Counted from the first letter of the stretch, positions 6,938-20,021 are shown. The stretch is DNA of 43,411 nucleotides from Acidimicrobiia bacterium (GCA_050247895.1 JBFWTJ010000001.1:1-43411); one strand, 5' to 3'. Notes: generated by a model from the sequence alone, not told the origin. Numbers and translations are program-made.

Positions 6938-7375
6938 TCAGCCCCGCAGGAAGGTGACCCGCCAGTCGCCGGACTCGAGCGGGTCGGCGACGTAGCGGAA
7001 CCCCTGCGCGCCCAGCACGCCCTCGAGGGGGACGGGCTCGAAGGGCGCGTAGACGACCAGCACCTCGCCCTCCCCGACCCGGGCCGCGGCCTCCATGATC
7101 TCGGCGAAGGGCTCGCCGCCCTCGGCCAGGGTGGGCCGGGCGTCGACCACGTGGGCCCGGCTGGTGATCTCGACGGCCCACTCCTCGGGGCCCCGCTCGA
7201 CGTACTCCCAGGCGAACTGGCCGGGCCGCGTGGCGTCGAGCTGGTGGCGCAGCGGCGACGGGTCGTGGTCGTTGAGCAACCGGAGCACCTCCCCGGCGGC
7301 CAGGCCGTCGAGCTCCTCGAAGATGGCCTCGTGCCGGCCCCTCGGCGGCATCGGCCTCACGTCCAGCGTCCGCAT
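6938..7375 (-). CDS. DUF2249 domain protein (tandem DUF2249 repeats)
   Basis: LDVRPMPPRGRHEAIFEELDGLAAGEVLRLLNDHDPSPLRHQL, plus a second similar half (VVDARPTLAEGGEPFAEIMEAAARVGEGEVLVVYAPFEPVPL). This is the pattern remembered for DUF2249. Confidence 0.8.
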   Translation of the reverse strand: MRTLDVRPMPPRGRHEAIFEELDGLAAGEVLRLLNDHDPSPLRHQLDATRPGQFAWEYVERGPEEWAVEITSRAHVVDARPTLAEGGEPFAEIMEAAARVGEGEVLVVYAPFEPVPLEGVLGAQGFRYVADPLESGDWRVTFLRG

Positions 7376-7404
7376 CGTCGGTCCTCCCGCGGTCGGTTGC
7401 CGGT

Positions 7405-7442
7405 GATGTTATTCTGCTACTAACTAGAAAAACCAACGGAGG
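7405..7442 (+). promoter_or_regulatory. AT-rich conserved leader/operator-like motif, copy A
   Basis: GATGTTATTCTGCTACTAACTAGAAAAACCAACGGAGG ends 6 nt before GTG 7449. It aligns with the copies at 9401, 14501, 15907 and 19809. It lies in the divergent DUF2249/membrane-protein intergenic region. Confidence 0.5.
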
Positions 7443-7448
7443 TCGCCC

Positions 7449-8843
7449 GTGCCCGGAACCAGCGCCCCACCCGGTCCCGGACCCGGGCCCGCCGCGGCAC
7501 CGGTCGCCCCGTTCGTCCCCGGCGGGGCGACGGTGCCGCCGGCATCGGTGCCCCTCGCCTTCCTGGCCGCCTCCGGGGTCGGCCTGGCCGGCTTCGGCCT
7601 GGCCGCGTCCCTCGCCGCCGGGCGCGTGGTGTCGGCACCCACCGCGCCGGGCGCCCTGGCCGCCACCCACGTGGGGATGCTGGCCTTCCTCACCACCGCC
7701 GTGCTCGGCGCCGCGCACCAGTTCACCCCGGTCGTGTCCCGCCGACCGCTGCGCTCGGTCGCGCTGGCCCGCCTGACCGCCGTCGGCATGGTGGCGACGG
7801 CCTGGCTGCTGCCCACCGGCTTCGCCCACGGCCCCGAGGACCTGGTCGTGGTGGGCGGCCTGCTCGGCGCGGCGACGGTGGCCTCGGCGGCCTGGAACCT
7901 GTCGGGACCGCTGGCCGCCCGGGGCGGCGGCGTGCCCCTGGCCGGGCTCCGGCTCTCCGTCGCCTACCTGGTCGTCACGGTGGCCTTCGGCGTCGTCTAC
8001 GCCTTCGACCGGCAGGCCGGCTGGTTCCCGCTGCTCCCCCACCGCGTCCTGGCCCACGCCCACCTGGGCCTGCTGGGCTGGCTCGGCCTGACCTACGTGT
8101 CGGTGGCCGAGAAGCTGTGGCCCATGTTCCTGCTGGCCCACCGGCCCCGGGCCCGGGCCGGCGCCTGGGCCGTCGGGCTGCTGGGAGCAGGCTCCCCGGT
8201 GCTGGCCGCCGGCCTCCTGTTCGGCGTGCCGGCGCTCGCCTGGCCCGGCGGGCTCGCCGCGGCCGGCGGGCTGGGGGCCCACCTGGTCTCGCTGGCCGGT
8301 GCCGTCCGCCACCGCCGGCGCCCGCTCGAGCTCCTGCACGCCTTCCTGTTCGCCTCGGCCGCCTTCCTCGTCGCCGCCGTCGTGCTGGCCGCGACGGCGG
8401 CGCTGGCCCCGCTCGACACCGCGGACCGGGTCCGCCTGGTGACCGCCGAGATCGCCGCGCTGGTCGCCTGGCTCGGCCTGGCCGTGGTCGGCCACGCCCA
8501 CAAGATCGTGCCCTTCATCGCCTACACGGTGCTGCGCCGCCGCGGCGTGGCCGCGGCCCCGTCGGGACGGCCGCTGCTGTTCGGCGACCTGTTCCACCAC
8601 GGCACGGCGCGGGCCACCTGCGTGGTGGCCACCGCGGGCTTCGCCGGCGTGCTGGTGGGGATCCTGGCCGCCTCTCCGGGTGCCGTGGCCGCCGGGGCGC
8701 TGGGCGTGTCGGTCGCGGGGGTCCTGGCCACGGCCACCCTCGCCACCGGCCCGCGGCGGGCCGTCCGGGCCACCCGCCGCGCCGGGCCGGCGCCGGCCCG
8801 TGGCGCGACATCCGGCCCGGCGATCCCGGGGAGGCCCTCGTGA
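7449..8843 (+). CDS. His-rich polytopic membrane protein (possible haem/copper-binding, HCO subunit I / NnrS-like)
   Basis: 464 aa with about 12 hydrophobic segments. Conserved-looking His clusters include THVGMLAF..AAHQFTP, LPHRVLAHAHLGLLGW and VVGHAHKIVPF. RBS GGAGG sits 6 nt upstream of the GTG. The family assignment is tentative. Confidence 0.7.
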   Translation: MPGTSAPPGPGPGPAAAPVAPFVPGGATVPPASVPLAFLAASGVGLAGFGLAASLAAGRVVSAPTAPGALAATHVGMLAFLTTAVLGAAHQFTPVVSRRPLRSVALARLTAVGMVATAWLLPTGFAHGPEDLVVVGGLLGAATVASAAWNLSGPLAARGGGVPLAGLRLSVAYLVVTVAFGVVYAFDRQAGWFPLLPHRVLAHAHLGLLGWLGLTYVSVAEKLWPMFLLAHRPRARAGAWAVGLLGAGSPVLAAGLLFGVPALAWPGGLAAAGGLGAHLVSLAGAVRHRRRPLELLHAFLFASAAFLVAAVVLAATAALAPLDTADRVRLVTAEIAALVAWLGLAVVGHAHKIVPFIAYTVLRRRGVAAAPSGRPLLFGDLFHHGTARATCVVATAGFAGVLVGILAASPGAVAAGALGVSVAGVLATATLATGPRRAVRATRRAGPAPARGATSGPAIPGRPS

Positions 8844-9364
8844 CCCAGCCACCGACCGCAGACCCCCGCACCCCGGGGGCGACCGCCCCGACCCCTCGCC
8901 GTGCCGACCCGGAGGGGCACCCGCCTCCCGGTGCGGACCTCGACGCCGCGGGCCCGTCCCCGAGCGGCGACGGCTCGTCCCCGGCTGTCGGGGGCCGGCT
9001 GGCCGACCTCGTGCACGACGCGGCGAGCGGGCTCGCGCCGGCGGCCGACCCCGGCGCCGAGGAGCGCCGTGCCGCGGTGCTCACGGCCCTGGGCGACGTG
9101 TGGGACCCCGAGCTGGGCCTCGACGTGGTCGCCCTCGGCCTCGTCTACGACGTGCGGGTCGACGGGGACCGGGTCGAGGTGGACATGACCTTGACCACGC
9201 CCGGCTGCCCGGTCTCCGAGCAGCTCCCGAGCGAGGCCGAGGCCGCGGTGCGAGCCGCCCTGCCCGGTGCCGAGGTCGTCCTGCGGGTGGTGTGGGAACC
9301 GCCGTGGACGCCCGAGCTGCTCTCGCCCTCGGCCCTCGAGCGGCTGGGCCTGGCCCGCGGCTGA
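8840..9364 (+). CDS. DUF59 / SufT-MIP18-like Fe-S (metal-sulfur) cluster assembly factor with a Pro-rich N-terminal extension
   Basis: C-terminal ~100 aa (VLTALGDVWDPELGLDVVALGLVYDVRVDGDRVEVDMTLTTPGCPVSEQL) is a classic DUF59 core. GTG 8840 overlaps the upstream stop (GTGA). Confidence 0.85.
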   Translation: MTQPPTADPRTPGATAPTPRRADPEGHPPPGADLDAAGPSPSGDGSSPAVGGRLADLVHDAASGLAPAADPGAEERRAAVLTALGDVWDPELGLDVVALGLVYDVRVDGDRVEVDMTLTTPGCPVSEQLPSEAEAAVRAALPGAEVVLRVVWEPPWTPELLSPSALERLGLARG

Positions 9365-9380
9365 CCGTCCGAATCCCGAC

Positions 9381-9409
9381 TTGCACGGTCGAGAATGGGT
9401 CCGTAGTTT
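9381..9409 (+). promoter_or_regulatory. Putative promoter TTGCAC-17 nt-TAGTTT for the peroxiredoxin/sulfite-reductase unit
   Basis: TTGCAC at 9381-9386 and TAGTTT at 9404-9409 (TANNNT) with a 17-nt spacer. By eye only. Confidence 0.3.
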
Positions 9410-9439
9410 TCCTATCAACAGCTAGAAGAACTACGGAGG
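9401..9439 (+). promoter_or_regulatory. AT-rich conserved leader/operator-like motif, copy C
   Basis: CCGTAGTTTTCCTATCAACAGCTAGAAGAACTACGGAGG ends 4 nt before ATG 9444. Its 3' half (CTAGAAGAAC-TACGGAGG) is near-identical to copy A (CTAGAAAAACCAACGGAGG). Confidence 0.5.
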
Positions 9440-9443
9440 AACC

Positions 9444-10076
9444 ATGACGCTCCAGCTCGGCGACCCCGCCCCGGACTTCACCGCCGACACCACCCAGGGC
9501 CGGCTCGGACTGCACGAGTACCTGGGCGAGGGATGGGGGATCCTCTTCTCCCACCCGGCCGACTTCACCCCGGTGTGCACCACCGAGCTGGGCGCCTTCG
9601 CCAACCGCCGGGACGAGTTCGCGCAGCGGGACACCAAGCTCATCGGGGTCAGCGTCGACCCCGTCGAGGACCACCGGCGCTGGTCGGACGACATCGCGGA
9701 GACCCAGGGCACCGGGCTCAACTTCCCCCTCGTCGGCGACGAGGGCCGTGAGGTCGCCTCGCTCTACGGGATGATCCACCCCAACGCCCTGGCCACGGCC
9801 ACGGTGCGCACGGTGTTCGTGATCAGCCCGGACAAGAAGGTCGCGCTCACCCTGACCTACCCCGCCGCCATCGGCCGCAACGTCGACGAGATCCTGCGCG
9901 TCCTCGACGCCCTGCAGCTCAGCGCCCGGCACAGCGTGTCCACCCCGGTGAACTGGACCGACGGCGACGACGTGATCATCTCCCCCGCCATCGACGACGC
10001 CACCGCGGCCGAGCGGTTCCCCAAGGGCTTCCGCACCCTCAAGCCCTACCTCCGCTACACGCCCCAGCCCGACTGA
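9444..10076 (+). CDS. 1-Cys peroxiredoxin (Prx6-type, AhpC/TSA family)
   Basis: FSHPADFTPVCTTEL peroxidatic-Cys motif. 210-aa length and the C-terminal extension are typical of 1-Cys Prx. Confidence 0.95.
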   Translation: MTLQLGDPAPDFTADTTQGRLGLHEYLGEGWGILFSHPADFTPVCTTELGAFANRRDEFAQRDTKLIGVSVDPVEDHRRWSDDIAETQGTGLNFPLVGDEGREVASLYGMIHPNALATATVRTVFVISPDKKVALTLTYPAAIGRNVDEILRVLDALQLSARHSVSTPVNWTDGDDVIISPAIDDATAAERFPKGFRTLKPYLRYTPQPD

Positions 10077-10144
10077 CGCCGCGGCGCCTCCCCGCCGACG
10101 TGCACGCCCACGCCGCTCCCGCGACCCCCGGGCCGGGCGCCTCG

Positions 10145-11959
10145 ATGTCCGACGAGGTGCCCGGCTCGAAGGTCGAGCAGGCCAAGGCCCGCAGCCGCCA
10201 GCTCCGCTCGACCATCGCCCGGGAGCTCCACGACGGCGCGGCCACCTTCTCGCCCGAGGCCGCCCTGACGCTCAAGTTCCACGGCACCTACTCGCAGGAC
10301 GACCGCGACACCCGGTCCCTCCGGCGGCGGGAGGGCCTGGCCCCCGACGCCTTCCACATGGTCCGCACCGGCATCCCCGGCGGAGAGCTCACGGCCGAGC
10401 AGTACCTGGTCCTGGACCGGCTGGCCGACACGGTCGGCAACGGCACGCTGCGGGTCACCACCCGCCAGGACGTCCAGTTCCACCGGGTCGACAAGTCCGA
10501 CCTCCACGAGCTGATCGCCACCCTCGACGCCGCACTGGTCACGACCCTGGCCGCCTGCGGGGACGTGGTGCGCAACACCACCGCCTGCCCCGCGCCCCTG
10601 CCCGGCGGTGCCCGCGCCGAGCTGCGGGCCTGGGCCCGGCTCGTGTCCCGCCACCTCAAGCCCCGCACCCGCGCCTACTACGACGTCTGGGTCGACGGCG
10701 AGCACGTGGCCGCCGCGGGCCCGGCCGGCACGCCCGACGAGGAACCGCTCTACGGGCGGGTCTACCTGCCCCGGAAGTTCAAGATCGGGTTCAGCGCGCC
10801 CGGCGACAACTGCACCGACGTGCTCATCAACGACCTCGCCGTCGTGCCGGTGGTCCACGACGACGCGATCGAGGCCTTCACGCTCCTGGTCGGCGGGGGC
10901 CAGGGCAAGAACCACAACAAGCCCGGGACCTACCCCCGCCTGGCCACGCCCCTGACCACCGTGGCTCCCGACGACCTGCTCGCCGCCTGCGAGGCGGTCG
11001 TGGCGCTGCACCGGGACCACGGCGACCGGGTCGACCGGGACCACGCCCGGCTGAAGTACGTCGTGGACGACCTCGGCGAGCGGCGGGTCCGCGCCATCGT
11101 GGCCGCCAACCTCGGCCGGGCGCGGCTGGCCGACGCCGAGCCCGTCGACCTCCACCGGGCCGAGGACCACCTGGGCTGGCACGACCAGGGCGACGGCCGC
11201 TGCTTCCTCGGCGTCAAGGTCCTCAACGGTCGCATCGCCGACGTCGGCGCGGAGCGGGTCCGCTCCGGCCTGCGGGACGTCGTCGAGCGCTTCGGCGCCT
11301 CGGTGCGCTTCACCCCCCGCGAGGACGTGCTGCTCTGCGACCTCCCCGCCGACGCCCGCCCCGCCGTCGACGCGGTCCTGGCCGGCCACGGCGTCCGGCC
11401 GGTCGGCGCCTGGACGCCGGTGGCCCGGAGCTCGTTCGCGTGCCCGGCCCTGCCCACCTGCGGCCTGGCCCTGGCCGAGTCGGAGCGGGCCCTGCCCGCG
11501 CTCCTCGACGAGCTCCACCTGGCGCTGGCCGACCTGGGCCTGGCCGACCTCGACCTGCACGTGCGGATGACCGGCTGCCCCAACGGCTGCGCCCGGCCCT
11601 ACACGACCGAGGTGGCCTTCGTCGGCCGGGGCAAGCACCGCTACGACGTCCACCTCGGCGGCGAGCAGGTCGGCATCCGGCTCAACGAGGTGTTCTGCGA
11701 GAACGTCCCCCGCGACGCCCTGGTCGAGGTCCTGGTCCCGGTCCTGGCGCGCTACGCCGCCGAGCGGGAGCCCTGCCAGGGCTTCGGCGACTGGTGCCAC
11801 CGGGTCGGCGTCGCCGCCCTGCGGGCCGAGCTGGGCACCCAGCGGTGGGCCCGGCGCCCCCGCGACGCCGGGCCCACCGGGGCCGTTGCCGGGCCCGGAG
11901 CCGCCGTGGAGGTCACCGCGGGGGCAGGTCCTCCCAGAGGGCGTCGAAGTCGGCCCTGA
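10145..11959 (+). CDS. Sulfite/nitrite reductase hemoprotein (CysI-like, sirohaem-4Fe4S)
   Basis: LKFHGTYSQDDRD motif and duplicated NIR_SIR folds. Cluster-ligand Cys pattern is SFACPALPTCG ... MTGCPNGCARPY. ATG 10145 preferred over the longer 10100 start. The 3' end overlaps the convergent MarR gene by 47 nt. Confidence 0.9.
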   Translation: MSDEVPGSKVEQAKARSRQLRSTIARELHDGAATFSPEAALTLKFHGTYSQDDRDTRSLRRREGLAPDAFHMVRTGIPGGELTAEQYLVLDRLADTVGNGTLRVTTRQDVQFHRVDKSDLHELIATLDAALVTTLAACGDVVRNTTACPAPLPGGARAELRAWARLVSRHLKPRTRAYYDVWVDGEHVAAAGPAGTPDEEPLYGRVYLPRKFKIGFSAPGDNCTDVLINDLAVVPVVHDDAIEAFTLLVGGGQGKNHNKPGTYPRLATPLTTVAPDDLLAACEAVVALHRDHGDRVDRDHARLKYVVDDLGERRVRAIVAANLGRARLADAEPVDLHRAEDHLGWHDQGDGRCFLGVKVLNGRIADVGAERVRSGLRDVVERFGASVRFTPREDVLLCDLPADARPAVDAVLAGHGVRPVGAWTPVARSSFACPALPTCGLALAESERALPALLDELHLALADLGLADLDLHVRMTGCPNGCARPYTTEVAFVGRGKHRYDVHLGGEQVGIRLNEVFCENVPRDALVEVLVPVLARYAAEREPCQGFGDWCHRVGVAALRAELGTQRWARRPRDAGPTGAVAGPGAAVEVTAGAGPPRGRRSRP

Positions 11960-12323
11960 GCCGCGACAGCTCCTCGAGGTGGGCGCCGCCCAACGCCTCG
12001 ATCCGGGCTGTCCCGTCGGGGGTGAGCCGCACGCGGACGACCCGGTTGTCGTCGGCGTCGTGGATGCGCTCGACCAGGCCGGCGGTGGCGGCCCGGTCGA
12101 CCAGCTCGACCGCGCTGTGGTGCCGGAGGAGGAGGTGCTCGGCGACCTCGCCGATCGAGGGCGGGCCACCGTGGCCCCGGACGGCCAGGAGCAGCTGGTG
12201 CTGCGACGCGGTGAGGCCGACCGAGCGGGCCTGCTCCTCGCTCCAGTGCAGGAACCGGCGCAGCCCGTCGCGGAAGGAGAGGAGCCGGGCGAAGTCCTGG
12301 TCGCGCAGGCGGGACGCATTCAT
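11913..12323 (-). CDS. MarR-family transcriptional regulator
   Basis: 136 aa. wHTH region LTASQHQLLLAVRGHGGPPSIGEVAEHLLLRHHSAVELVDRAATAGLVERIHDADDNRVVRVRLTPDG is typical of MarR. Confidence 0.9.
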   Translation of the reverse strand: MNASRLRDQDFARLLSFRDGLRRFLHWSEEQARSVGLTASQHQLLLAVRGHGGPPSIGEVAEHLLLRHHSAVELVDRAATAGLVERIHDADDNRVVRVRLTPDGTARIEALGGAHLEELSRLRADFDALWEDLPPR

Positions 12324-12331
12324 ATCGTTCT

Positions 12332-12344
12332 ACGATACTATCGT
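12332..12344. promoter_or_regulatory. Perfect 6-1-6 palindrome ACGATA-C-TATCGT in the 27-bp MarR/ClC divergent spacer; probable MarR operator
   Basis: Read directly. The whole intergenic region between ATG 12323 (minus strand) and ATG 12351 (plus strand) is only 27 bp and is AT-rich. Confidence 0.5.
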
Positions 12345-12350
12345 GCCACG

Positions 12351-14117: not shown

Positions 14118-14133
14118 GCCGCCGACCCCGGCT

Positions 14134-14460
14134 TCAGCCGCCGGCGGGGAAGGGCGGCGCGAAGACGCCGAGCAGGACGAGGTCGGCCGGGCCGGTGTTG
14201 GCCACCCGCAGCGCCTCGTCGCCGTGGAGGTGGACGAGCGTGCCCGGGGCGATCTCGGCCCCCTCGGCGAGGTCGATCCGGCCCGTCCCCTCGACGACGT
14301 GGAGCACCACGTCGGACGCGCCGTGGGTGTGGGCGGGCAGGGCGTGGCCCGGCCCGATCCGGATGACCCGGACGTTGCAGCCCGCGGCCCGCAGGACGAC
14401 GTCCACCGCCACCCCGCCGGGACCGGGCACCGAGCCCTCCGCAACGCTGGTCAGCTGCAC
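14134..14460 (-). CDS. Cupin-domain protein
   Basis: 108 aa. GHALPAHTHGASDVVLHVVEGTG...GTLVHLHGDEALRVAN fits the two cupin motifs. RBS AGGAGGA sits upstream of GTG 14460. Confidence 0.8.
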   Translation of the reverse strand: MQLTSVAEGSVPGPGGVAVDVVLRAAGCNVRVIRIGPGHALPAHTHGASDVVLHVVEGTGRIDLAEGAEIAPGTLVHLHGDEALRVANTGPADLVLLGVFAPPFPAGG

Positions 14461-14500
14461 GGCACCCGTCCTCCTGTCCCGCGCTGTCGGCGCGGTCCGC

Positions 14501-14539
14501 GATGTTGTTCTATCTGTTGCTAGTCAAACCTCCAGGAGG
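14501..14539 (+). promoter_or_regulatory. AT-rich conserved leader/operator-like motif, copy B
   Basis: GATGTTGTTCTATCTGTTGCTAGTCAAACCTCCAGGAGG ends 5 nt before ATG 14545. It shares GATGTT.TTCT, CTAG and AAACC with copy A, and TTCTATC...TGCT..TCAAAC with copy F. Confidence 0.5.
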
Positions 14540-14544
14540 GTGCC

Positions 14545-15252
14545 ATGGCCAGTTTCCCGGACGAGGGCGGTGATCCCGCCTGCTGGGCCCACCTCTTCGA
14601 CGACGACCCTGGACATTTAAATAGGACTCCTATATATATGGCGACAGCCAACGACCAGGAGCCGACCGTGACCACCATCGCCGGGTACACCTACGACGAC
14701 CCCTCCCTGTCCCCCTCGCCCGTCACCCCGGAGGACCTCGCCGCCCTCCAGGCCTCGGTGCTGTGGACCGACGCCGACCGCGCCGCCCTGCGCCGGGCCG
14801 GCGAGATCCTCGTCCCCCGCACCGAGGAGATCCTCGACGTCTGGTACGGGTTCGTGGGCGGGACATCCCACCTCGTGTCGACCTTCGTCGGCCCCCACGG
14901 CCAGCCCGACGGGGACTACCTCGCCGCGGTGCGGGGTCGGTTCGGGCGCTGGATCGCCGACCTCTGCGGGCGGGACCACGACGAGCGCTGGCTCGCCTAC
15001 CAGGACGAGATCGCCCTCCGGCACCACACCGCGGCCAAGAACCGGACCGACGGGGTCGACTCGCCCTCGACCCACGTCCCGCTCCGCCACCTCATCGCCC
15101 TCGTGGTGCCCATCACCGTGACCGTGCGCGACTTCCTCGCCGCCGGCGAGGCCGACCCCGACGCGGTCGACGCGATGTACCACGCCTGGCTCAAGGCCGT
15201 GACCCTCTCGGTGGCCCTCTGGGCCCGCCCCTACAGTCCCACCACGTGGTGA
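14545..15252 (+). CDS. Protoglobin-domain protein (possibly with a 31-aa N-terminal extension)
   Basis: AGYTYDDPSLSPSPVTPEDLAALQASVLWTDAD...ILDVWYGFVGG.SHLV...YLAAVRGRFGRWI...WLAYQDEIALRHH..KNRTDGV matches the protoglobin pattern. ATG 14545 has an excellent RBS. An in-frame ATG at 14638 would give a canonical ~204-aa protoglobin. Confidence 0.85.
   Translation: MASFPDEGGDPACWAHLFDDDPGHLNRTPIYMATANDQEPTVTTIAGYTYDDPSLSPSPVTPEDLAALQASVLWTDADRAALRRAGEILVPRTEEILDVWYGFVGGTSHLVSTFVGPHGQPDGDYLAAVRGRFGRWIADLCGRDHDERWLAYQDEIALRHHTAAKNRTDGVDSPSTHVPLRHLIALVVPITVTVRDFLAAGEADPDAVDAMYHAWLKAVTLSVALWARPYSPTTW
14621..14633. promoter_or_regulatory. Perfect 6-1-6 palindrome ATAGGA-C-TCCTAT inside an AT-rich patch just before the internal ATG 14638
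   Basis: Read directly. The patch 14614-14640 (CATTTAAATAGGACTCCTATATATATG) is the most AT-rich stretch in this region. It contains TANNNT-like hexamers. Confidence 0.4.
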
Positions 15253-15271
15253 GCCCCTCGCCGTCCCACCC

Positions 15272-15856
15272 GTGAGCGCCGACCGGCCCGCCGACCTGGC
15301 CGGCAAGGTGGCCGCCGCGCTCGACCGGCTGGCCCACGCCCGGCGAGCGGAGCGCCAGGCCGTGGCCACCCGCCACGGGCTGACCCCCCTCCAGGCCGAC
15401 CTCCTCGCCGTGCTGCGCGGCGGCCCGCCGCCCGAGCCGCTGGTCGGCGCGCTGGCCGCCGAGGTCGGCGTGACCCAGCCGACGGTGACCGACTCGCTCC
15501 GGGCGCTGGAGGGCAAGGGCCTGGTGCGGCGGCGGCCCGACCCCCGCGACGGCCGCCGGGCGACGGTCGAGCTCACCGTGGCCGGGACGCACCTGGCCGC
15601 CGAGCTGGCCGACACGCCCGACGCCGTCGTCGAGGCCGTGCGGGGCCTCGACCGCGCGCAGCAGGAGGCGGCGCTGGAGGCGCTGCTGGCCCTGATCGCC
15701 CGGCTCGTCGACGTCGGCGCCATCACCGTGGCCCGCACCTGCGCCACCTGCCGCTTCCACCGCTTCGAGCGGGGCGTGCACCGCTGCACGCTGCTCGACG
15801 TCGAGCTGCCACCCGCCGAGCTGCGGGTGGACTGCCCCGAGCACCAGCCGGCCTGA
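15272..15856 (+). CDS. MarR-like wHTH regulator with C-terminal Cys/His-rich tail
   Basis: wHTH region LTPLQADLLAVL...VGALAAEVGVTQPTVTDSLRALEGKGLVRRRPDPRDGRRATVELT. The tail is C-x2-C-x11-C-x15-C with interspersed His (TCATCRFHRFERGVHRCTLLD...VDCPEH). Confidence 0.85.
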   Translation: MSADRPADLAGKVAAALDRLAHARRAERQAVATRHGLTPLQADLLAVLRGGPPPEPLVGALAAEVGVTQPTVTDSLRALEGKGLVRRRPDPRDGRRATVELTVAGTHLAAELADTPDAVVEAVRGLDRAQQEAALEALLALIARLVDVGAITVARTCATCRFHRFERGVHRCTLLDVELPPAELRVDCPEHQPA

Positions 15857-15906
15857 CCCACCCCCGCCGCCGCGGCCGCCGATGGGGCGCGCCGTCGCGG
15901 CCCGGC

Positions 15907-15941
15907 ATATATTTCTAGTTGTGAATAGAGAAACAAGGCGG
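15907..15941 (+). promoter_or_regulatory. AT-rich conserved motif, copy D (overlaps the cupredoxin start)
   Basis: ATATATTTCTAGTTGTGAATAGAGAAACAAGGCGG shares TTCTAG ... TAGAGAAAC ... AAGG with copies A and C. TATATT (15908-15913) sits 7 nt before GTG 15921, which is leaderless-promoter geometry. Confidence 0.4.
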
Positions 15942-16343
15942 CACCTGGTCGGGGCCGCACCGCTCGTCGCCCTCGCCCTGGTCCTGTCGAGCTGCGGCGA
16001 CGACGGGTCCGACGACGGGTCCGTCGGCGGGCGCGACGGCGGAGCCGACCCCGCACCGGCGACCGACGGACCCGTGGACCTCGACGTCGTGGCCCAGGAC
16101 ATCCACTTCGACCGGGACGACTACGCGACCCGACCCGGGACCGTCCGCGTCCGCTACACGAACGAGGGCAGCATCCGCCACACGCTGGTGGTCGAGGACG
16201 TCGACGGGTTCTCGCTCGACGTCACCGGCCACGGCGACGTCGAGCGGGGCACCCTCGAGCTCGAGCCGGGCCGGTACGTCCTGTACTGCGACGTGGCCGG
16301 GCACCGGGCCGCCGGCATGGAAGCCCGCCTGGAGGTGGCGTGA
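15921..16343 (+). CDS. Cupredoxin (type-1 copper) lipoprotein
   Basis: Signal peptide plus lipobox (RRHLVGAAPLVALALVLSSC). Type-1 Cu ligands are H (SIRHTLVV) and C-x4-H-x4-M (YCDVAGHRAAGM). Start is uncertain: GTG 15921 gives an ideal signal peptide, while the track uses ATG 15882. Confidence 0.8.
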   Translation: MNRETRRHLVGAAPLVALALVLSSCGDDGSDDGSVGGRDGGADPAPATDGPVDLDVVAQDIHFDRDDYATRPGTVRVRYTNEGSIRHTLVVEDVDGFSLDVTGHGDVERGTLELEPGRYVLYCDVAGHRAAGMEARLEVA

Positions 16344-16663
16344 CGACGCTCGACCATCCCGATCCCGCGACGCCCTCCGCCGCCGCCCGCTCCCCGCTGA
16401 TCGAGCCCGGCTCACCCGCGGGTCGGTGGGCCTCGATCGGCGCGCTCATCGGCTTCGCCGTCCTGTTCGGCATGGTCGCCGCCCTCGGCCTGGGCCTGGG
16501 CATGGACGCCAAGGGCGCCATCGGCCTGGGCGTGTTCGTGGGCGTCTGGGGCGGGCTCGGCTACGGGTTCATGATGGGCGGGTGCGTCGCCCTGTCGATC
16601 TCCCACGTCCACACCCACGCCGCCGACCCAGCCGGCCGGCCCGACCCTCCCGCCACGCCGTGA
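16340..16663 (+). CDS. Small hypothetical membrane protein (2-3 TM)
   Basis: GTGA overlap with the cupredoxin stop. Gly-rich hydrophobic segments (WASIGALIGFAVLFGMVAALGLGLG; IGLGVFVGVWGGLGYGFMMGGCVAL). Confidence 0.6.
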   Translation: MTTLDHPDPATPSAAARSPLIEPGSPAGRWASIGALIGFAVLFGMVAALGLGLGMDAKGAIGLGVFVGVWGGLGYGFMMGGCVALSISHVHTHAADPAGRPDPPATP

Positions 16664-17097
16664 GCCGGCTGGCCGCGGTGCCCTCCCGGCGGGGCCGGGA
16701 CCTCGACGACCCCACCGAGATCGCCGAGATGGTCCGCCGCTTCTACGCCGACGTGGCCCAGGACGACCTGCTCGGGCCGCTCTTCAACGACGTCGCCCGG
16801 GTCGACTGGTCCGAGCACCTGCCCAAGCTCACCGCCTTCTGGTGCCGGGTGCTGCTGTCGATGCCCGGCTACGAGGGCAACCCCTTCCGGGCCCACCTGC
16901 TGGTCCACGCCCGGCAACCCTTCACCACGGCCCACTTCGAGCGCTGGCTCGACCTGTTCCACGAGACGGTGGACCTGGGCTGGGACGGTCCCGGCGCCGA
17001 GCAGGCCAAGGCCTTCGCCCGCAAGGTGGCCATGGTCCACTCCAAGCAGCTCGTCGGCCACCCCGTCACCTACGCCGACCCCGGGGCCGGTCGATGA
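16660..17097 (+). CDS. Group III truncated haemoglobin
   Basis: 145 aa. MVRRFYADVAQDDLLGPLFNDV.RVDWSEHLPKLTAFWCRVLL..PGYEGNPFRAHL......FTTAHFERWLDLFHETV matches trHb group III as remembered. GTGA overlap with the upstream gene. Confidence 0.85.
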   Translation: MSRLAAVPSRRGRDLDDPTEIAEMVRRFYADVAQDDLLGPLFNDVARVDWSEHLPKLTAFWCRVLLSMPGYEGNPFRAHLLVHARQPFTTAHFERWLDLFHETVDLGWDGPGAEQAKAFARKVAMVHSKQLVGHPVTYADPGAGR

Positions 17098-17531
17098 GGG
17101 TCGACGGCTGGAGCCTGGTCCGCTTCCTCCACGTCACCGCGGCCATGGGCTGGGTCGGCGGCCAGCTCCTGCTCAGCGGCGTGGTCCTGCCCGTGCTGCG
17201 GGCCAACCTGGAGCCGGCCGCCCGCACCCCGCTCGTCCACGCCACGGCCCGGCGCTTCGCCCTGGTCGCCAACGCCGGGCTGCTGCCCGTCCTGCTCGCC
17301 ACCGGCATCGCGCTGGCCTGGCACCGGGGCGTCACCCTGGGCAGCTTCGACGACCCGGGCTACGGCCGCCTGCTCGGGATCAAGCTCACCCTCGTGGTCG
17401 TCTCGATCGTGCTGGCCGCCGGGCACGGCGTGCTGGCCACCCGCAACCCCCGCAGCGCCCGGCCCGTCGCCATGGCCGGCCTGGCCGCCTCCCTCGGCGT
17501 GGTCGTCTTCGCCACCGCCCTGGTCCCCTGA
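17094..17531 (+). CDS. CopD-like / small integral membrane protein (4 TM)
   Basis: ATGA overlap with the globin stop. FLHVTAAMGWVGGQLLLSGVVLPVL and three further TM segments. The family call is tentative. Confidence 0.65.
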   Translation: MRVDGWSLVRFLHVTAAMGWVGGQLLLSGVVLPVLRANLEPAARTPLVHATARRFALVANAGLLPVLLATGIALAWHRGVTLGSFDDPGYGRLLGIKLTLVVVSIVLAAGHGVLATRNPRSARPVAMAGLAASLGVVVFATALVP

Positions 17532-17587
17532 GGACCCGACCTCCGATTACCAAGCCGACTTATACAAATCTTGTTTAGTATTATTCC

Positions 17588-19054
17588 GTGCAGCGGCCCG
17601 ACGACGTGTTCGACCGCGAGTCGGAATGGGACGACCTCGCCACGTTCGCCACGCAGGGCGGATCGGGCACCCGGCTCGCCCTGGTGAGGGGACGACGACG
17701 CCAGGGGAAGTCCTACCTCCTGCGCCGGCTGGCCCGAGCCACCGGCGGCTTTTACCACCAGGCCGTCGAGGAAGAGCGGAGCCAGGCACTCGCGGGGTTC
17801 GGTCGTGCGCTGGGTGCCCACCTCGGAGTGCCCGGAGGGCGACTCGCGCTCGACCATTGGGACGACGCGCTCCTCGCCCTCCGCGAGCTGCCGACCGCCG
17901 GCGGTCCGACCGTCGTCGTCCTCGACGAGCTGCCCTACCTCCTCGGCAACTCGCCGGAGCTCCCTTCGGTCATCCAGAGGTTCATCGACGACACGGACGA
18001 TCGGCCGGGTTCCCTGCGGCTCGTCCTGTGCGGCTCGGCGCTGTCGGTCATGGCCCACCTGCTCGAGGGGACCCAGGCGCTGCGCGGTCGTGCTTCGGTC
18101 GACGTGCTGGTGCGCGCCTTCGACTACCGGACGGCAGCTGCGTTCTGGGACATCGCCGACCCCATGACCGCCTTCCTCGTCCACGCCGTCGTCGGTGGGA
18201 CCCCCGGATACCGCGACCTCCTCCCTTCGTCCCCCCCACGACGACCCTCTGACCTCGGACGATGGCTCGGTGCCGGCCCGCTGAACCCGGCGAGCGCCCT
18301 GTTCCGCGAGGACGACTACCTGCTGACAGAGGACCGCTCGCTGTCCGACCGGCAGCTCTACCACTCCGTCGTCGCCGCGATCGCCGGGGGGAGCACGAGC
18401 CAGGGTGCCATCGCCCAGGTGCTGGGACGTGAGCAGCGCGCCGTCCAGCACCCCCTCAGATCCCTGGAGGAGGCGGGCTTCGTCACCGCCACCGACGACG
18501 CGCTCAGGTCGAGGCGGCCCATCTACCGGATCGCCGACCCGATCGTCCGGTTCCACCACGTCGTCACCCGCCGTGACCTCGCACGGTTCGAGGATCGGCG
18601 GACCGCCGAGGCGTGGGAGGACGCCAGGCCCCGCTTTCGAACCCACGTGCTCGGCCCTCACTTCGAGGACCTCGCGCGAGCCTTCACCTTCGCCTACGCA
18701 TCACCGGCCACGGTCGGCGGCAGCGTGGCCTCGGTCGGACCAGCCGTCGTCAACGATCCGACCACACGTCGCCAGCACGAGATCGACGTCGTGGCCCTCG
18801 GGCGCGAACCCGACGGCTCCTCGCGGGTGTTGGCCATCGGTGAAGCGAAGTTCACGACCTCCAAGCGGACCACCGCCGACCTGGATCGGCTGGAGGACGT
18901 GCGTCGCCTCGTGGCGCGCAAGTCGCCGGCGGCCGAGACCGCCCGGTTGCTGCTGTTCGCAGCCAACGGGGTCGACGTGAACCTCGCCCGCGTCGCGAAG
19001 GGCCGACCCGATGTGGAGCTGGTCGACATCCAGCGCCTCTACTTCGGGGAGTAG
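17588..19054 (+). CDS. P-loop ATPase (archaeal-ATPase/AAA-like) + wHTH + DUF234-type PD-(D/E)xK nuclease domain
   Basis: Walker A GRRRQGKS (17690-17713) and Walker B VVVLDELPYL. wHTH-like segment SQGAIAQVLGREQRAVQHPLRSLEEAGFV. C-terminal HEIDVV...AIGEAKF (D400, E419, K421). TAGTAT at 17576-17581 sits 6 nt before GTG 17588, which is leaderless geometry. Confidence 0.85.
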   Translation: MQRPDDVFDRESEWDDLATFATQGGSGTRLALVRGRRRQGKSYLLRRLARATGGFYHQAVEEERSQALAGFGRALGAHLGVPGGRLALDHWDDALLALRELPTAGGPTVVVLDELPYLLGNSPELPSVIQRFIDDTDDRPGSLRLVLCGSALSVMAHLLEGTQALRGRASVDVLVRAFDYRTAAAFWDIADPMTAFLVHAVVGGTPGYRDLLPSSPPRRPSDLGRWLGAGPLNPASALFREDDYLLTEDRSLSDRQLYHSVVAAIAGGSTSQGAIAQVLGREQRAVQHPLRSLEEAGFVTATDDALRSRRPIYRIADPIVRFHHVVTRRDLARFEDRRTAEAWEDARPRFRTHVLGPHFEDLARAFTFAYASPATVGGSVASVGPAVVNDPTTRRQHEIDVVALGREPDGSSRVLAIGEAKFTTSKRTTADLDRLEDVRRLVARKSPAAETARLLLFAANGVDVNLARVAKGRPDVELVDIQRLYFGE

Positions 19055-19081
19055 CGGGCCTCGTCCCGAGTGCGCGGGCGG

Positions 19082-19756
19082 TCAGGCCGGGGTGGCGACC
19101 TTGATCCGGCAGCCGGCCCGGCGGGGCGGGCGGACGACCAGGTCGGTGATGGTCGCCTCGCCGCCGGTCTGCTCGGCGATGCCCTCGGCGATGCCCCGGT
19201 GCAGGTCGCAGACGATCTCGGGCGACGACGCGGCCGGGCCCACGAACGGGCAGCGGTCCAGGACCACCTCGACCCCGGCCCGGGCCGGCGCCACCCGGGG
19301 CTCGAAGCCGAGCCGGCGGGCCACCGCGTCGAGCACCTCCACGGCGTCCGCGCCGCGGCCGTGGTCCGCGGCCAGCCGGCGACCGGCCCGGCGGCCGACC
19401 TCCCGGGGGGTCCCCTCACCGCGGAGGAGCTCGAGCAGCATCATCGACAGGGCCTCGAACGGGCTCGGGCCGCCCCAGCGCTCGGCCGCGCCCGGCATCG
19501 GCCGGTAGCGCAGCCGGGGCCGCCCGGGGCCCGAGGGGGCGTCCTGCTCCTCGACGACCAACCCGGCCTGGCGCAGCTTGGCCAGGTGCTGGCGGATGGC
19601 GTTGTGGTTGAGCCCGAAGTGGTCGGTCAGCTCGGCCACGCCCACCGGGCCCGGCGCGCCACGGACGTAGGCGAACACGGCGTTGCGGGTGGGGTCCCCC
19701 AGGGCCCGGCTCTGCACCAGGATGTCCTGGTCGATGAGGTCGTCGCCTCGGGGCAT
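19082..19756 (-). CDS. ArsR-like wHTH transcriptional regulator with C-terminal Cys-containing sensor-type domain
   Basis: 224 aa from ATG 19756 (RBS AGGAG 6 nt upstream). LGDPTRNAVFAYVRGAPGPVGVAELTDHFGLNHNAIRQHLAKLRQAGLV is the wHTH. The C-terminus carries DRCPF...PEIVCDLHRGIAEGI. The track ORF extends spuriously to 19921. Confidence 0.85.
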   Translation of the reverse strand: MPRGDDLIDQDILVQSRALGDPTRNAVFAYVRGAPGPVGVAELTDHFGLNHNAIRQHLAKLRQAGLVVEEQDAPSGPGRPRLRYRPMPGAAERWGGPSPFEALSMMLLELLRGEGTPREVGRRAGRRLAADHGRGADAVEVLDAVARRLGFEPRVAPARAGVEVVLDRCPFVGPAASSPEIVCDLHRGIAEGIAEQTGGEATITDLVVRPPRRAGCRIKVATPA

Positions 19757-19808
19757 GCGCCGCTCCTGACCGTCGGGCCCGCGACCGCGGAGGCGCTCCG
19801 GGCCGGCA

Positions 19809-19846
19809 GGTAATTCTATCGGCTGCTCGATCAAACAGCCGGGAAG
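19809..19846 (+). promoter_or_regulatory. AT-rich conserved motif, copy F, in the regulator/giant-operon divergent region
   Basis: GGTAATTCTATCGGCTGCTCGATCAAACAGCCGGGAAG matches about 27 of 38 positions of copy B by hand alignment. It lies about 175 nt upstream of GTG 20022. Confidence 0.45.
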
Positions 19847-19896
19847 CCTGCGGCGGGAACGGCCGCCACGGTCCGCGTCGGGCCGACCGCGCGATC

Positions 19897-19908: not shown

Positions 19909-20021
19909 CCTTCGGCTGCACTATGTTGCCGAGCCGTGCGGACGGGCGGGGCCCAGGATGTGGGTTCGTGGGCGACCGACCGCGAGCGCACGTCCGGTCG
20001 GGCAGGTCCTGAGGGCTGACG

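What the first reader, a model, noticed from the sequence alone, without database searches (positions are those of the whole stretch)
7405..19846. Related AT-rich motif recurs upstream of five transcription units, linking the redox/globin genes and the giant operon
In this very GC-rich DNA, five AT-rich patches align by hand:
- A, 7405: GATGTTATTCTGCTACTAACTAGAAAAACCAACGGAGG
- C, 9402: CGTAGTTTTCCTATCAACAGCTAGAAGAACTACGGAGG
- B, 14501: GATGTTGTTCTATCTGTTGCTAGTCAAACCTCCAGGAGG
- D, 15907: ATATATTTCTAGTTGTGAATAGAGAAACAAGGCGG
- F, 19809: GGTAATTCTATCGGCTGCTCGATCAAACAGCCGGGAAG

The common architecture is TTCT(A/G), then 8-11 nt, then CTAG (or CGAT) followed by an A-rich AAAC box, then a purine-rich GGAGG-like box. 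TTCTA and TAGAA form a loose dyad.

The copies precede the His-rich membrane protein/DUF59, the peroxiredoxin/sulfite reductase, the protoglobin, the cupredoxin/truncated-globin operon and the giant operon. The MarR/ClC spacer (GTTCTACGATACTATCGT, 12327-12344) shares the GTTCTA start.

This could be a regulon operator, a conserved promoter/5'UTR module, or remnants of a small duplicated element.
Basis: seen in the sequence. Interest (0 to 1): 0.65.

Follow-up and report, generated by a model that had tools for sequence, protein, structure and literature searches.

The report
Operator sites of an ArnR/SufR-like regulator
The five AT-rich patches are real copies of one 26-bp palindromic DNA site, most likely the binding site of an iron-sulfur-cluster repressor encoded next to them, and together they define a previously undescribed stress regulon (globins, peroxiredoxin, Fe-S assembly genes) in Acidimicrobiia bacteria.

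Summary
All five patches are copies of a fixed-length 26-bp palindrome, RTTnyTCTAG-N6-CTAGArnAAY: A 7408-7433, C 9406-9431, B 14504-14529, D 15909-15934, F 19810-19835. The GGAGG box is the ribosome-binding site, not part of the motif.

A matrix built only from sites in other genomes ranks these five first in the 43-kb window (24-41 bits; next best 9.6). A matrix built only from window sites finds 17 hits in 182 kb of 10 loci chosen solely for encoding a homologue of the 224-aa "ArsR-like" gene (19082-19756, minus strand). It finds none in 655 kb of high-GC control loci.

In those loci the sites precede truncated globin, 1-Cys peroxiredoxin, sufBCD, ScdA/hemerythrin, PAS genes and the regulator's own gene. 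The regulator belongs to the SufR/ArnR-like COG2345 family, with an invariant GRP AT-hook and C-X13-C-X2-H-X29-C.

Most likely mechanism (inferred): the [4Fe-4S] form represses, and NO or Fe-S damage relieves repression.

F is the autoregulatory site, not evidence for the "giant operon". The protoglobin has its own separate operator, and the MarR/ClC spacer holds a third, unrelated one.

Verdict: new member of a known kind.

The parts
7408..7433 (.). Operator A, GTTATTCTGCTACTAACTAGAAAAAC. It lies between divergent DUF2249 (start 7375, minus strand) and the His-rich membrane protein-DUF59 operon (start 7449).
   Evidence: Scores 36.2 bits with the PWM from independent loci. The orthologous HisMemb-DUF59-regulator operon in L085 has its best local hit at the same position.
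9406..9431 (.). Operator C, GTTTTCCTATCAACAGCTAGAAGAAC, 12 nt upstream of the 1-Cys peroxiredoxin ATG (9444). It overlaps a TTGCAC-N17-TAGTTT promoter-like pair (9381-9409).
   Evidence: 34.1 bits. The 85%-identical Prx in L083 has a site 15 nt upstream of its start. Promoter boxes were read from the sequence.
14504..14529 (.). Operator B, GTTGTTCTATCTGTTGCTAGTCAAAC, between the cupin gene (start 14460, minus strand) and ORF 14545.
   Evidence: 28.3 bits. PAS genes with the same N-terminal peptide have sites upstream in L089, L091 and L088 (weak).
15909..15934 (.). Operator D, ATATTTCTAGTTGTGAATAGAGAAAC, at the 5' end of the cupredoxin-orf107-trHb-CopD operon. It contains the probable GTG start (15921) and overlaps a TATATT -10 box (15908-15913).
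   Evidence: 41.0 bits. trHb orthologues in L001, L081, L082, L083, L084, L087 and L088 all have a site upstream.
19810..19835 (.). Operator F, GTAATTCTATCGGCTGCTCGATCAAA, an autoregulatory site 54 nt upstream of the regulator's start. One arm is strong and one is degenerate.
   Evidence: 24.3 bits. It aligns with a conserved block (ATTGATC...CTAGAATTAT) upstream of the regulator orthologues in L001, L081, L083, L084, L086 and L087.
19082..19756 (-). Candidate cognate regulator, 224 aa. It has an ArsR-type wHTH, a GRP AT-hook and a C-terminal sensory domain with C169, C183, H186 and C216 (SufR/ArnR-like, COG2345 family).
   Evidence: Pfam HTH_20/HTH_5. Invariant residues in 35 homologues. hhalign to Mtb SufR gives 95% probability. 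Full-length BLAST to COG2345 member BAN04159.1 gives E 6e-25, and to C. glutamicum NCgl1138, which I take to be ArnR, gives E 5e-7.
6938..7375 (-). DUF2249 gene, a putative target of A (divergent).
   Evidence: Pfam PF10006. The SD and ATG lie 20-33 nt from the site.
7449..9364 (+). His-rich membrane protein (7449-8843) and DUF59/FeS_assembly_P (GTG 8840-9364), a putative target operon of A.
   Evidence: Pfam. Start codons. L085 has the same gene pair in an operon with the regulator.
9444..11959 (+). 1-Cys peroxiredoxin (9444-10076) and a NIR_SIR sulfite/nitrite reductase (10100-11959), a putative target operon of C.
   Evidence: Pfam.
14134..14460 (-). Cupin_2 gene, a putative divergent target of B.
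   Evidence: Pfam. B lies 44 nt upstream of its GTG.
14545..14637 (+). A 31-codon remnant of a regulon PAS gene (MASFPDEGGDPACWAHLFDDD...), fused in frame to the protoglobin.
   Evidence: tblastn matches the N-termini of PAS proteins in L083, L089, L088 and a gene in L081. L089 PAS was confirmed by Pfam.
14638..15252 (+). Protoglobin, with its own promoter and operator (ATAGGACTCCTAT, 14621-14633). It may additionally be read through from B.
   Evidence: Pfam Protoglobin. The palindrome is conserved upstream of protoglobin in 17 loci.
15921..17531 (+). Cupredoxin-like lipoprotein (15921-16343), small membrane protein (16340-16663), truncated globin (16660-17097) and CopD-like protein (17094-17531), the target operon of D.
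   Evidence: Pfam. Overlapping start and stop codons. L001 and L082 have the same trHb context.

Best explanation
The five patches are operators of one transcription factor, the 224-aa protein encoded at 19082-19756 (minus strand). It is a member of the SufR/ArnR-like (COG2345) family of [4Fe-4S] regulators.

Shown:
- The motif is a 26-bp palindrome, RTTnyTCTAG-N6-CTAGArnAAY.
- It is conserved in other Acidimicrobiia loci that carry the regulator.
- It lies in front of a recurring gene set and of the regulator's own transcription unit.

Inferred from the family:
- A dimer binds each site. The wHTH helices (invariant HNAIRQH) would read the CTAG-N6-CTAG core. The wing AT-hooks (invariant GxGRP) would sit in the minor groove of the outer A/T arms.
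- The sites lie 12-15 nt before the start codons (3-6 nt before the Shine-Dalgarno box at A, B and C) or overlap -10-like boxes. Binding should therefore block RNA polymerase, which means repression.
- The cluster, held by C169, C183, C216 and probably H186, is nitrosylated or lost under NO, oxidative or Fe-S stress. The protein then leaves the DNA.
- Released genes are truncated globin, protoglobin (by read-through), peroxiredoxin with the sulfite/nitrite reductase, DUF59 with the membrane protein, DUF2249, cupin and the regulator itself. In other genomes they also include sufBCD, ScdA and nitrobindin.
For: 1. Specificity. A PWM trained only on window sites A-D gives 17 hits >=20 bits in 182 kb of 10 independent regulator-containing loci, and 0 in 655 kb of 38 high-GC control loci. 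The reverse PWM recovers exactly the five window sites.

2. Autoregulation. A site or conserved site-like block precedes the regulator's own transcription unit in the window and in L001, L081, L083, L084, L086, L087, L089 and L091, and weakly in L085 and L088.

3. Coherent targets.
- sufB: L083 4536 and L084 2045.
- trHb: 7 loci.
- 1-Cys Prx: L083 9859.
- ScdA/hemerythrin: L084 16674.
- Ferredoxin: L084 15459.
- COX1-like plus nitrobindin: L088 10741.
- PAS genes.

4. The regulator was the only window regulator found together with the motif in the loci examined (fetched stretches, up to 10 kb on each side of the query gene). Among the 80 protoglobin loci, only L001 has the regulator, and only L001 has a motif hit among the high-GC ones.

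5. Family features. T23/R24, R55-Q56-H57, G76-x-G78-R79-P80, C169, C183, H186 and C216 are invariant in 35 homologues. hhalign to Mtb SufR gives 95% probability across both the DNA-binding and the Cys domain. Alignments to a CDD COG2345 member and to the C. glutamicum protein taken to be ArnR are full-length and colinear.

6. Literature.
- SufR binds a palindrome flanked by A/T tracts through HTH plus AT-hook, and represses in its holo form (bioRxiv 10.64898/2025.12.26.696629).
- Mtb SufR senses NO (PMC8371249).
- ArnR has C179/C193/C223 plus a conserved His, is an NO sensor, and represses hmp (PMC12343034).
Against: - No binding or expression data exist; everything is comparative.
- One homologue locus (L090, 63% identity) has no detectable site, and L085 and L088 have only weak ones.
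- Control loci are mostly from other taxa, and whole genomes could not be scanned. A second, unlinked factor recognising the motif is therefore not excluded.
- The protein fails the curated cut-offs of cyanobacterial SufR (TIGR02702: 20 vs 178.8 bits) and of the ArsR/SmtB subfamily (43 vs 55).
- Mtb SufR is reported to read the palindromic core with low specificity. Here the core is the best conserved part, so the recognition mode may differ.
- Ilumatobacter coccineus also has a separate protein annotated as 'putative SufR family transcriptional regulator', so this protein need not be the only suf regulator.
- Direction (repressor) and signal (NO) are inferred by analogy and from site position only.
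Confidence: 0.72

Rival explanations
1. The palindrome is a genuine operator, but a different transcription factor encoded elsewhere binds it (for example the canonical SufR, an Rrf2/NsrR-type or a WhiB-type factor). The COG2345 gene would then be just one more member of the regulon.
For: Only the fetched stretches (up to 10 kb each side) were examined, never whole genomes. L090 has the regulator without a site. I. coccineus encodes a separate SufR-type protein. trHb is adjacent to the regulator in most loci, so co-occurrence with the motif could run through trHb.
Against: L086, L089 and L091 have a site in front of the regulator's unit with no trHb nearby. The site upstream of the regulator is conserved as a distinctive half-degenerate variant, which is typical of autoregulation. 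The palindrome with outer A/T arms fits the dual HTH/AT-hook mode described for this family. No other regulator gene recurs in these loci.
Confidence: 0.17
2. One of the other local regulators binds the motif: the MarR with a Cys-rich tail (15272-15856), the MarR at 11913-12323, or the ATPase-wHTH protein (17588-19054).
For: All three lie inside the 12-kb cluster. The MarR-Cys and MarR1 genes also occur near the regulator in L001, L082 and L086.
Against: - MarR-Cys is present in 23 protoglobin loci, 22 of which lack motif 1. It tracks a different palindrome, TAGGANTCCTA: 16 of 17 loci with that palindrome have the gene.
- MarR1 sits on its own pair of ATCGT-N3-ACGAT palindromes, conserved in L086.
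- The ATPase-wHTH has no counterpart in any related locus.
- L081, L083-L085, L087-L089 and L091 have motif 1 without any of these three.
Confidence: 0.04
3. The conserved unit is an RNA hairpin in the 5' UTR (a translational or stability element next to the Shine-Dalgarno box), not a DNA site.
For: In A, B and C the element ends 3-6 nt before GGAGG. The arms can pair (152 Watson-Crick plus 24 G-U of 250 arm positions).
Against: When a conserved arm position deviates, pairing is broken 46 times and compensated twice. The autoregulatory sites keep one arm and lose the other. Sites serve divergent gene pairs. No Rfam family matches.
Confidence: 0.03
4. The resemblance is only what AT-rich promoters plus ribosome-binding sites of a 75% GC genome share by chance, or the patches are decayed copies of a small mobile or duplicated element.
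For: A palindrome could be a pair of terminal repeats.
Against: Shuffle and cross-genome PWM tests. Three other AT-rich patches do not match. Sites are conserved at orthologous positions in front of orthologous genes in genomes whose regulators are only 47-79% identical.
Confidence: 0.02

Closest known systems
ArnR of Corynebacterium glutamicum (COG2345; NO-sensing [4Fe-4S] repressor of narKGHJI and hmp)
   Same: - Same architecture: wHTH, GRGRP wing, dimerisation helix, C-terminal sensory domain.
- Same ligand pattern: ArnR has C179-X13-C193-X29-C223 with a conserved His; here it is C169-X13-C183-X2-H186-X29-C216.
- The C-terminal domain of the model gives the same weak TRAPP/Bet3-like fold hits that the ArnR authors report.
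- Both control a globin gene likely to be used against NO.
- The footprint of about 30 bp includes two A/T-rich arms.
   Different: - Only 22% identity.
- The operator differs: TAWTTAAWTA for ArnR versus RTTnyTCTAG-N6-CTAGArnAAY here.
- The targets here are truncated globin, peroxiredoxin, suf, ScdA and PAS genes rather than nitrate reductase and flavohaemoglobin.
- The lineage is Acidimicrobiia, whereas ArnR homologues are described almost exclusively from Actinobacteria, chiefly Corynebacterium.
SufR (Mycobacterium tuberculosis Rv1460, Streptomyces avermitilis, Synechocystis)
   Same: - Homologous over both the DNA-binding and the cluster domains (hhalign 95%).
- Has the GRP AT-hook and an R-x-H motif in helix 3.
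- Autoregulated palindromic operator flanked by A/T tracts.
- Sites precede sufB in L083 and L084.
- SufR is an NO-, H2O2- and O2-labile [4Fe-4S] repressor.
   Different: - The gene is not the first gene of a suf operon. It usually sits next to a truncated globin.
- The fourth-ligand position is His, not Glu.
- The helix motif is RQH, not RRH.
- The operator sequence differs from CAAC-N6-GTTG and ACACT-N5-TGTGA.
- The core is strongly conserved, whereas Mtb SufR tolerates core mutations.
- It scores far below the TIGR02702 cut-off.
- An Acidimicrobiia genome carries a separate SufR-type paralogue.
NsrR (Rrf2 family) - hmp regulons
   Same: Functional analogy only: an Fe-S cluster repressor whose palindromic operators sit in front of globin and Fe-S repair genes and are released by NO.
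   Different: Unrelated protein family. The Rrf2 Pfam hit is 18 bits against a cut-off of 30, in the HTH only. The operator is different.

Membership tests
SufR/ArnR-like [4Fe-4S] transcription factors (COG2345) | N-terminal ArsR-type winged helix-turn-helix | tested here: met
   Pfam HTH_20 (4.5e-9) and HTH_5. PDB sequence and Foldseek hits to ArsR, SmtB, HlyU and CzrA over residues ~15-90.
SufR/ArnR-like [4Fe-4S] transcription factors (COG2345) | Arg/His motif in recognition helix alpha-3 (RRH in Mtb SufR), plus T-R in alpha-1 | tested here: met
   R55-Q56-H57, T23 and R24 are invariant in 35 homologues. The middle residue is Q, not R. The preprint reports R50 and H52 as the conserved positions.
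SufR/ArnR-like [4Fe-4S] transcription factors (COG2345) | Central GRP AT-hook in the wing | tested here: met
   G76-x-G78-R79-P80 is invariant. It aligns with RGRP of Mtb SufR and with GRGRP of the C. glutamicum protein taken to be ArnR.
SufR/ArnR-like [4Fe-4S] transcription factors (COG2345) | Three conserved Cys plus a metal-binding residue three positions after the second Cys | tested here: met
   C169, C183, H186 and C216 are invariant. This is the same spacing as ArnR C179/C193/C223 with a conserved His, and it aligns to the HCP...LCETE segment of SufR.
SufR/ArnR-like [4Fe-4S] transcription factors (COG2345) | Sequence homology to accepted members | tested here: met
   BLASTP to the CDD COG2345 representative BAN04159.1: 29% identity, full length, E 6e-25. 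hhalign to Mtb SufR: 95.3%, E 2e-8. C. glutamicum NCgl1138 (taken to be ArnR): E 5e-7, colinear. Formal CDD assignment was not run.
SufR/ArnR-like [4Fe-4S] transcription factors (COG2345) | Binds a [4Fe-4S] cluster that controls DNA binding | not testable with these tools
   Needs anaerobic purification and spectroscopy.
SufR/ArnR-like [4Fe-4S] transcription factors (COG2345) | Palindromic operator flanked by A/T tracts, including one at its own promoter | tested here: met
   26-bp palindrome with A/T outer arms. A conserved site lies upstream of the regulator in the window and in 8-10 of 12 related loci. This is computational only.
SufR/ArnR-like [4Fe-4S] transcription factors (COG2345) | Fold of the Mtb SufR cryo-EM structure | not testable with these tools
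   The AF2 model has pLDDT 85. No SufR entry is in the PDB copy, only wHTH hits plus weak Bet3/TRAPP hits for the C-terminal domain.
SufR proper (suf-operon repressor; TIGR02702 for cyanobacteria) | Reaches the curated model score | tested here: not met
   TIGR02702 scores 20.3 bits against a cut-off of 178.8, HTH only.
SufR proper (suf-operon repressor; TIGR02702 for cyanobacteria) | Encoded at the head of the suf operon it represses | tested here: not met
   There is no suf operon in the window. In L083 and L084 sufB carries the motif, but the regulator lies 5-8 kb away next to trHb or Prx.
ArsR/SmtB metalloregulators | Reaches NF033788 subfamily cut-off; about 100-120 aa with alpha-3 or alpha-5 metal sites | tested here: not met
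   43.3 bits against a cut-off of 55. The protein is 224 aa with an extra Cys-bearing domain.

The most novel reading that the evidence does not exclude
An uncharacterised COG2345 clade of Acidimicrobiia acts as a master sensor of NO or Fe-S damage. Its single, sequence-specific operator (a CTAG-N6-CTAG core with A/T arms) joins what are separate regulons elsewhere: Fe-S assembly (SufR), globin-based NO detoxification (ArnR/NsrR), peroxiredoxin, and Fe-centre repair (ScdA). It would read its core by direct base contacts, unlike the shape-dominated recognition reported for Mtb SufR. The window would also show regulon rewiring in progress, because a protoglobin-MarR cassette with its own operator has been inserted into, and fused in frame with, a regulon PAS gene.
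Probability: 0.4. Interest if true: 0.6.

Novelty: new member of a known kind. Interest (0 to 1): 0.5.

Why it matters
According to the 2025 preprint, ArnR is the only non-SufR member of the large COG2345 family with known targets. This locus gives a third clade a defined operator, a testable regulon and a clear physiological theme: globins, peroxiredoxin, Fe-S assembly and repair.

It also offers a natural contrast for the AT-hook/HTH recognition model, because here the palindromic core is the most conserved part of the site. It is the first regulatory motif I could find for Acidimicrobiia, a widespread but largely uncultured class; no paper mentioning both Acidimicrobiia and SufR is in the searched library.

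The five sites, plus two further operator-regulator pairs in the same 12 kb, make a compact system for EMSA or DAP-seq work.

Tried and rejected
- Rfam at a permissive E-value over 6500-20500 gave only noise.
- The sigma-70/terminator scan gave nothing useful at the sites. Promoter boxes quoted in this report were read by eye.
- The genome-contig scan with the protoglobin returned no close relative of the window (best 77%). It did supply L001, the control loci and motif 2.
- The metagenome scan with the regulator returned only 2 loci, so I switched to the search for homologous proteins plus look-up of encoding contigs. One of those look-ups returned no DNA.
- The PDB sequence and fold searches could not test similarity to SufR, because the cryo-EM structure is not in the copy.
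- My first translation of the ClC gene (12353) was out of frame and gave false 'no Pfam' and 'no homologue' results. Corrected to 12351-14117, it is Voltage_CLC plus CBS.
- Known actinobacterial boxes (Rex, GlnR, PhoP, DasR, McbR, NsrR) were considered from memory and dropped. None has this palindrome and none was tested.
- MarR-Cys as the binder was rejected on co-occurrence.

Full report
**Observation**

The window is 75% G+C and has only about eight strongly AT-rich 30-mers. All of them lie between genes, apart from one inside the annotated protoglobin ORF.

Pairwise ungapped comparison shows that the five resemble one another far more than dinucleotide shuffles do: 9 of 10 pairs at p<=0.07, most at <=0.005. 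Three other AT-rich patches (MarR/ClC spacer, 14601, 17545) resemble nothing. Matches to reverse complements are as good as direct ones (C versus the reverse complement of B: 21/28), so the element is a palindrome.

Aligned from the outer GTT to AAC, sites A, C, B and D are all exactly 26 bp: GTTnTTCTAk-N6-mTAGAAnAAC. The GGAGG box is simply each gene's Shine-Dalgarno sequence.

**Genes**

| Coordinates | Strand | Gene |
|---|---|---|
| 6938-7375 | - | DUF2249 |
| 7449-8843 | + | His-rich membrane protein |
| 8840-9364 | + | DUF59 |
| 9444-10076 | + | 1-Cys peroxiredoxin |
| 10100-11959 | + | NIR_SIR reductase |
| 11913-12323 | - | MarR |
| 12351-14117 | + | ClC channel with CBS domains |
| 14134-14460 | - | cupin |
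| 14545/14638-15252 | + | protoglobin |
| 15272-15856 | + | MarR with a Cys-rich tail |
| 15921-16343 | + | cupredoxin-like lipoprotein |
| 16340-16663 | + | small membrane protein |
| 16660-17097 | + | truncated globin (trHb) |
| 17094-17531 | + | CopD-like |
| 17588-19054 | + | ATPase with wHTH |
| 19082-19756 | - | 224-aa 'ArsR-like' protein |
| 20022 onward | + | about five very large genes |

**Conservation**

A genome scan with the protoglobin gave 80 loci. A PWM trained on A-D found a hit in only one high-GC locus, L001, an Acidimicrobiaceae MAG. The hit is ATTATTCTATCGTTCACTAGATAATC, 23 nt before a trHb gene.

L001 is also the only one of the 80 loci that encodes an orthologue (71% identity) of the 224-aa ArsR-like protein. 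I therefore collected loci solely by homology to that protein:
- two from metagenomes;
- eight with DNA through the protein index (a ninth look-up returned no DNA).

In ten such loci (L001, L081-L089; 182 kb) the window-trained PWM finds 17 hits >=20 bits. In 655 kb of 38 high-GC control loci it finds none. Two further loci were added afterwards: L091 has a site and L090 has none.

The reverse test is equally clean. A PWM from 18 foreign sites ranks D, A, C, B and F as the top five positions of the window (41.0, 36.2, 34.1, 28.3 and 24.3 bits). The next best is 9.6, and shuffles that preserve local composition reach at most 18.4. The independent consensus is RTTnyTCTAG-N6-CTAGArnAAY, with C7/G20 nearly invariant.

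**What the sites precede**
- sufBCD-DUF59-PAS (L083)
- sufB and a globin, divergently (L084)
- 1-Cys peroxiredoxin (L083, 85% identical to the window's)
- trHb (L001, L081, L082, L083, L084, L087, and weakly L088)
- ScdA/hemerythrin and a ferredoxin (L084)
- a COX1-like oxidase plus nitrobindin (L088)
- PAS genes (L089, L091)
- a membrane protein-DUF59-regulator operon (L085, weak site)

Every window site therefore has an orthologous counterpart elsewhere.

A site also precedes the regulator's own transcription unit almost everywhere. Aligning the upstream regions of seven orthologues shows one conserved block, (G/A)TTGnTC...CTAGAATTAT, and window F belongs to it. F is thus the autoregulatory site, conserved as a one-strong-arm variant. 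It gives no specific evidence for control of the giant genes 186 bp away, although divergent control is not excluded.

**The regulator**

In 35 homologues (46-79% identical to the window protein) the following are invariant: T23, R24, HNAxRQH (51-57), G76-x-GRP80, C169, C183, H186 and C216.

A December 2025 preprint describes the cryo-EM structure of M. tuberculosis SufR and defines the SufR-like/COG2345 family by exactly these features:
- a wHTH with an RRH motif in helix 3;
- a GRP AT-hook in the wing;
- three Cys plus a fourth ligand three residues after the second Cys;
- operators that are palindromes flanked by A/T tracts.

Using sequences from that paper's data set:
- The window protein aligns over its full length with the COG2345 representative BAN04159.1 of Ilumatobacter (29% identity, E 6e-25).
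- Its family profile matches Mtb SufR through both domains (95% probability).
- It aligns colinearly with C. glutamicum NCgl1138, which I take to be ArnR on the basis of gene-order memory; the supplement lists it only as a hypothetical protein (22% identity, E 5e-7).

The Cys spacing and the His are those of ArnR (C179/C193/C223 with a conserved His). ArnR is an O2-tolerant, NO-sensing [4Fe-4S] repressor of nar and hmp. The AF2 model (pLDDT 85) gives ArsR/SmtB hits for the N-terminal domain and the same weak Bet3/TRAPP hits for the C-terminal domain that the ArnR authors reported.

The protein fails the curated models for cyanobacterial SufR and for ArsR/SmtB. It is not at the head of a suf operon, and Ilumatobacter has a separate SufR-type paralogue that matches only in the HTH. 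I therefore place it in the family as a distinct clade, not as SufR proper.

**Mechanism**

Shown: the motif, its conservation, its positions, and the family features of the protein.

Inferred:
- A dimer binds each 26-bp site, with HTH helices on the CTAG-N6-CTAG core and AT-hooks in the outer A/T arms.
- Binding represses, because of where the sites lie. C begins inside a TTGCAC-N17-TAGTTT promoter-like pair and ends 3 nt before the SD. A and B end 5-6 nt before the SD. D overlaps a TATATT box 7 nt before a probable leaderless GTG. In the autoregulatory sites the strong arm (TAGAAT, TAGGAT or TAGAGT) is itself a TAnnnT -10-like hexamer in most loci.
- Nitrosylation or loss of the cluster releases the genes, by analogy with SufR and ArnR.

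The target list fits an NO/Fe-S-damage response: globins, nitrobindin, peroxiredoxin, Fe-S assembly and repair, and a siroheme reductase.

**Rivals**
- RNA hairpin: unlikely. Deviations from consensus break arm pairing 46 times against 2 compensated, and Rfam finds nothing.
- The other local regulators have their own operators (see next section).
- An unlinked factor cannot be excluded without whole genomes. L090 is an exception, with the regulator but no site.

**Other operators in the same region**

*Protoglobin operator.* A perfect palindrome, ATAGGACTCCTAT (14621-14633), lies inside the annotated protoglobin ORF, 5 nt before the in-frame ATG at 14638. TAGGANTCCTA occurs exactly once in 17 of the 80 protoglobin loci. 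It always lies 0-1 kb upstream of protoglobin; in the eight loci whose upstream sequence I read it sits just downstream of a TTGAC-like box and mostly overlaps a TATGNT-like box. Sixteen of those 17 loci encode the MarR-with-Cys-tail protein, against 1 of 57 loci without it.

*PAS remnant.* The 31 codons from 14545 to 14637 match the N-terminus (DEGGDPxCWAHLF) of the regulon's PAS proteins. B therefore appears to be the operator of a PAS gene whose body was replaced by a protoglobin-MarR cassette that brought its own promoter. The fusion happens to be in frame.

*MarR/ClC operator.* The 27-bp MarR/ClC spacer consists of two palindromes, ATCGTTCTACGAT and ATCGTGCCACGAT. The orthologous pair in L086 has ATCGTGACACGAC and ATCGTGACACGAT. 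This is a third operator system, unrelated to motif 1 (2.1 bits).

**Verdict**

The system is a new, computationally defined member of the recently recognised SufR/ArnR-like family, with a new operator sequence and a new regulon composition. Interest is moderate (0.5).

Noticed in passing
window 14621-14633 (and L001-L012, L014, L015, L030, L032, L040): A perfect palindrome, ATAGGACTCCTAT, lies inside the annotated protoglobin ORF, 5 nt before the in-frame ATG at 14638. TAGGANTCCTA occurs exactly once in 17 of 80 protoglobin loci (Actinomycetota, Deinococcota, Chloroflexota), always 0-1 kb upstream of protoglobin. It tracks the MarR with a Cys-rich C-terminal tail (window 15272-15856): 16 of 17 loci with the palindrome have that gene, against 1 of 57 loci without it. 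This is probably a separate, widespread protoglobin operator-regulator pair. The library search turned up no paper that evidently addresses this pairing.
   Followed up: partly
window 14545-14637: The first 31 codons of the 'protoglobin' ORF (MASFPDEGGDPACWAHLFDDD...) match the N-terminus of small PAS proteins that belong to the same regulon in L083, L088, L089 and L081. This looks like a PAS-gene 5' remnant fused in frame to an inserted protoglobin-MarR cassette. The stretch around the junction uses rare A/T-ending codons.
   Followed up: partly
window 12324-12352; L086 12610-12640: The whole 27-bp spacer between the MarR gene (start 12323, minus strand) and the ClC gene (ATG 12351) is two 13-bp palindromes, ATCGTTCTACGAT and ATCGTGCCACGAT. 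The second overlaps the ClC start codon. The orthologous MarR/ClC pair in L086 has the same arrangement. This is probably the MarR operator, and both genes may be leaderless.
   Followed up: partly
window 17537-19054: An ATPase_2/AAA protein with a wHTH (17588-19054) is preceded by the most AT-rich patch of the window (17537-17601, GC down to 0.23). It sits between CopD and the regulator, where L001 has nothing. It has no counterpart in any related locus, so it is possibly a recent insertion.
   Followed up: no
window 15882-15945: The cupredoxin-like gene encodes a lipoprotein signal peptide (…LALVLSSCG). It probably starts at GTG 15921, inside operator D, 7 nt after a TATATT box. That suggests a leaderless mRNA whose start codon lies within the operator.
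   Followed up: partly
window 8840-8843, 16660-16663, 17094-17097: Start and stop codons overlap by 4 nt (GTGA/ATGA) at HisMemb/DUF59, orf107/trHb and trHb/CopD. This indicates translational coupling within the target operons.
   Followed up: no
window 20022-37284: The 'giant operon' is about five consecutive very large genes in alternating frames, with GC3 of 0.98-1.00. The first (1356 aa) has PhoD-like, PG_binding_1 and DUF7800 hits. Function was not examined.
   Followed up: no
L036 9032-9057: In Thermanaerothrix daxensis the region upstream of the MarR-Cys homologue has TCCTATAATTATTTAGGA. These are the motif-2 half-sites in everted order with motif-1-like spacing. It is the only control-locus hit near 20 bits with the window PWM (GC 0.64).
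   Followed up: no
L084 6609-6634: A second COG2345 paralogue in the Microthrixaceae locus (6769-7503, 46% identical) has a weak motif-like sequence, TTTTATCTACCATAGACTAGAAGTTG, upstream. This hints that the paralogues recognise related sites.
   Followed up: no
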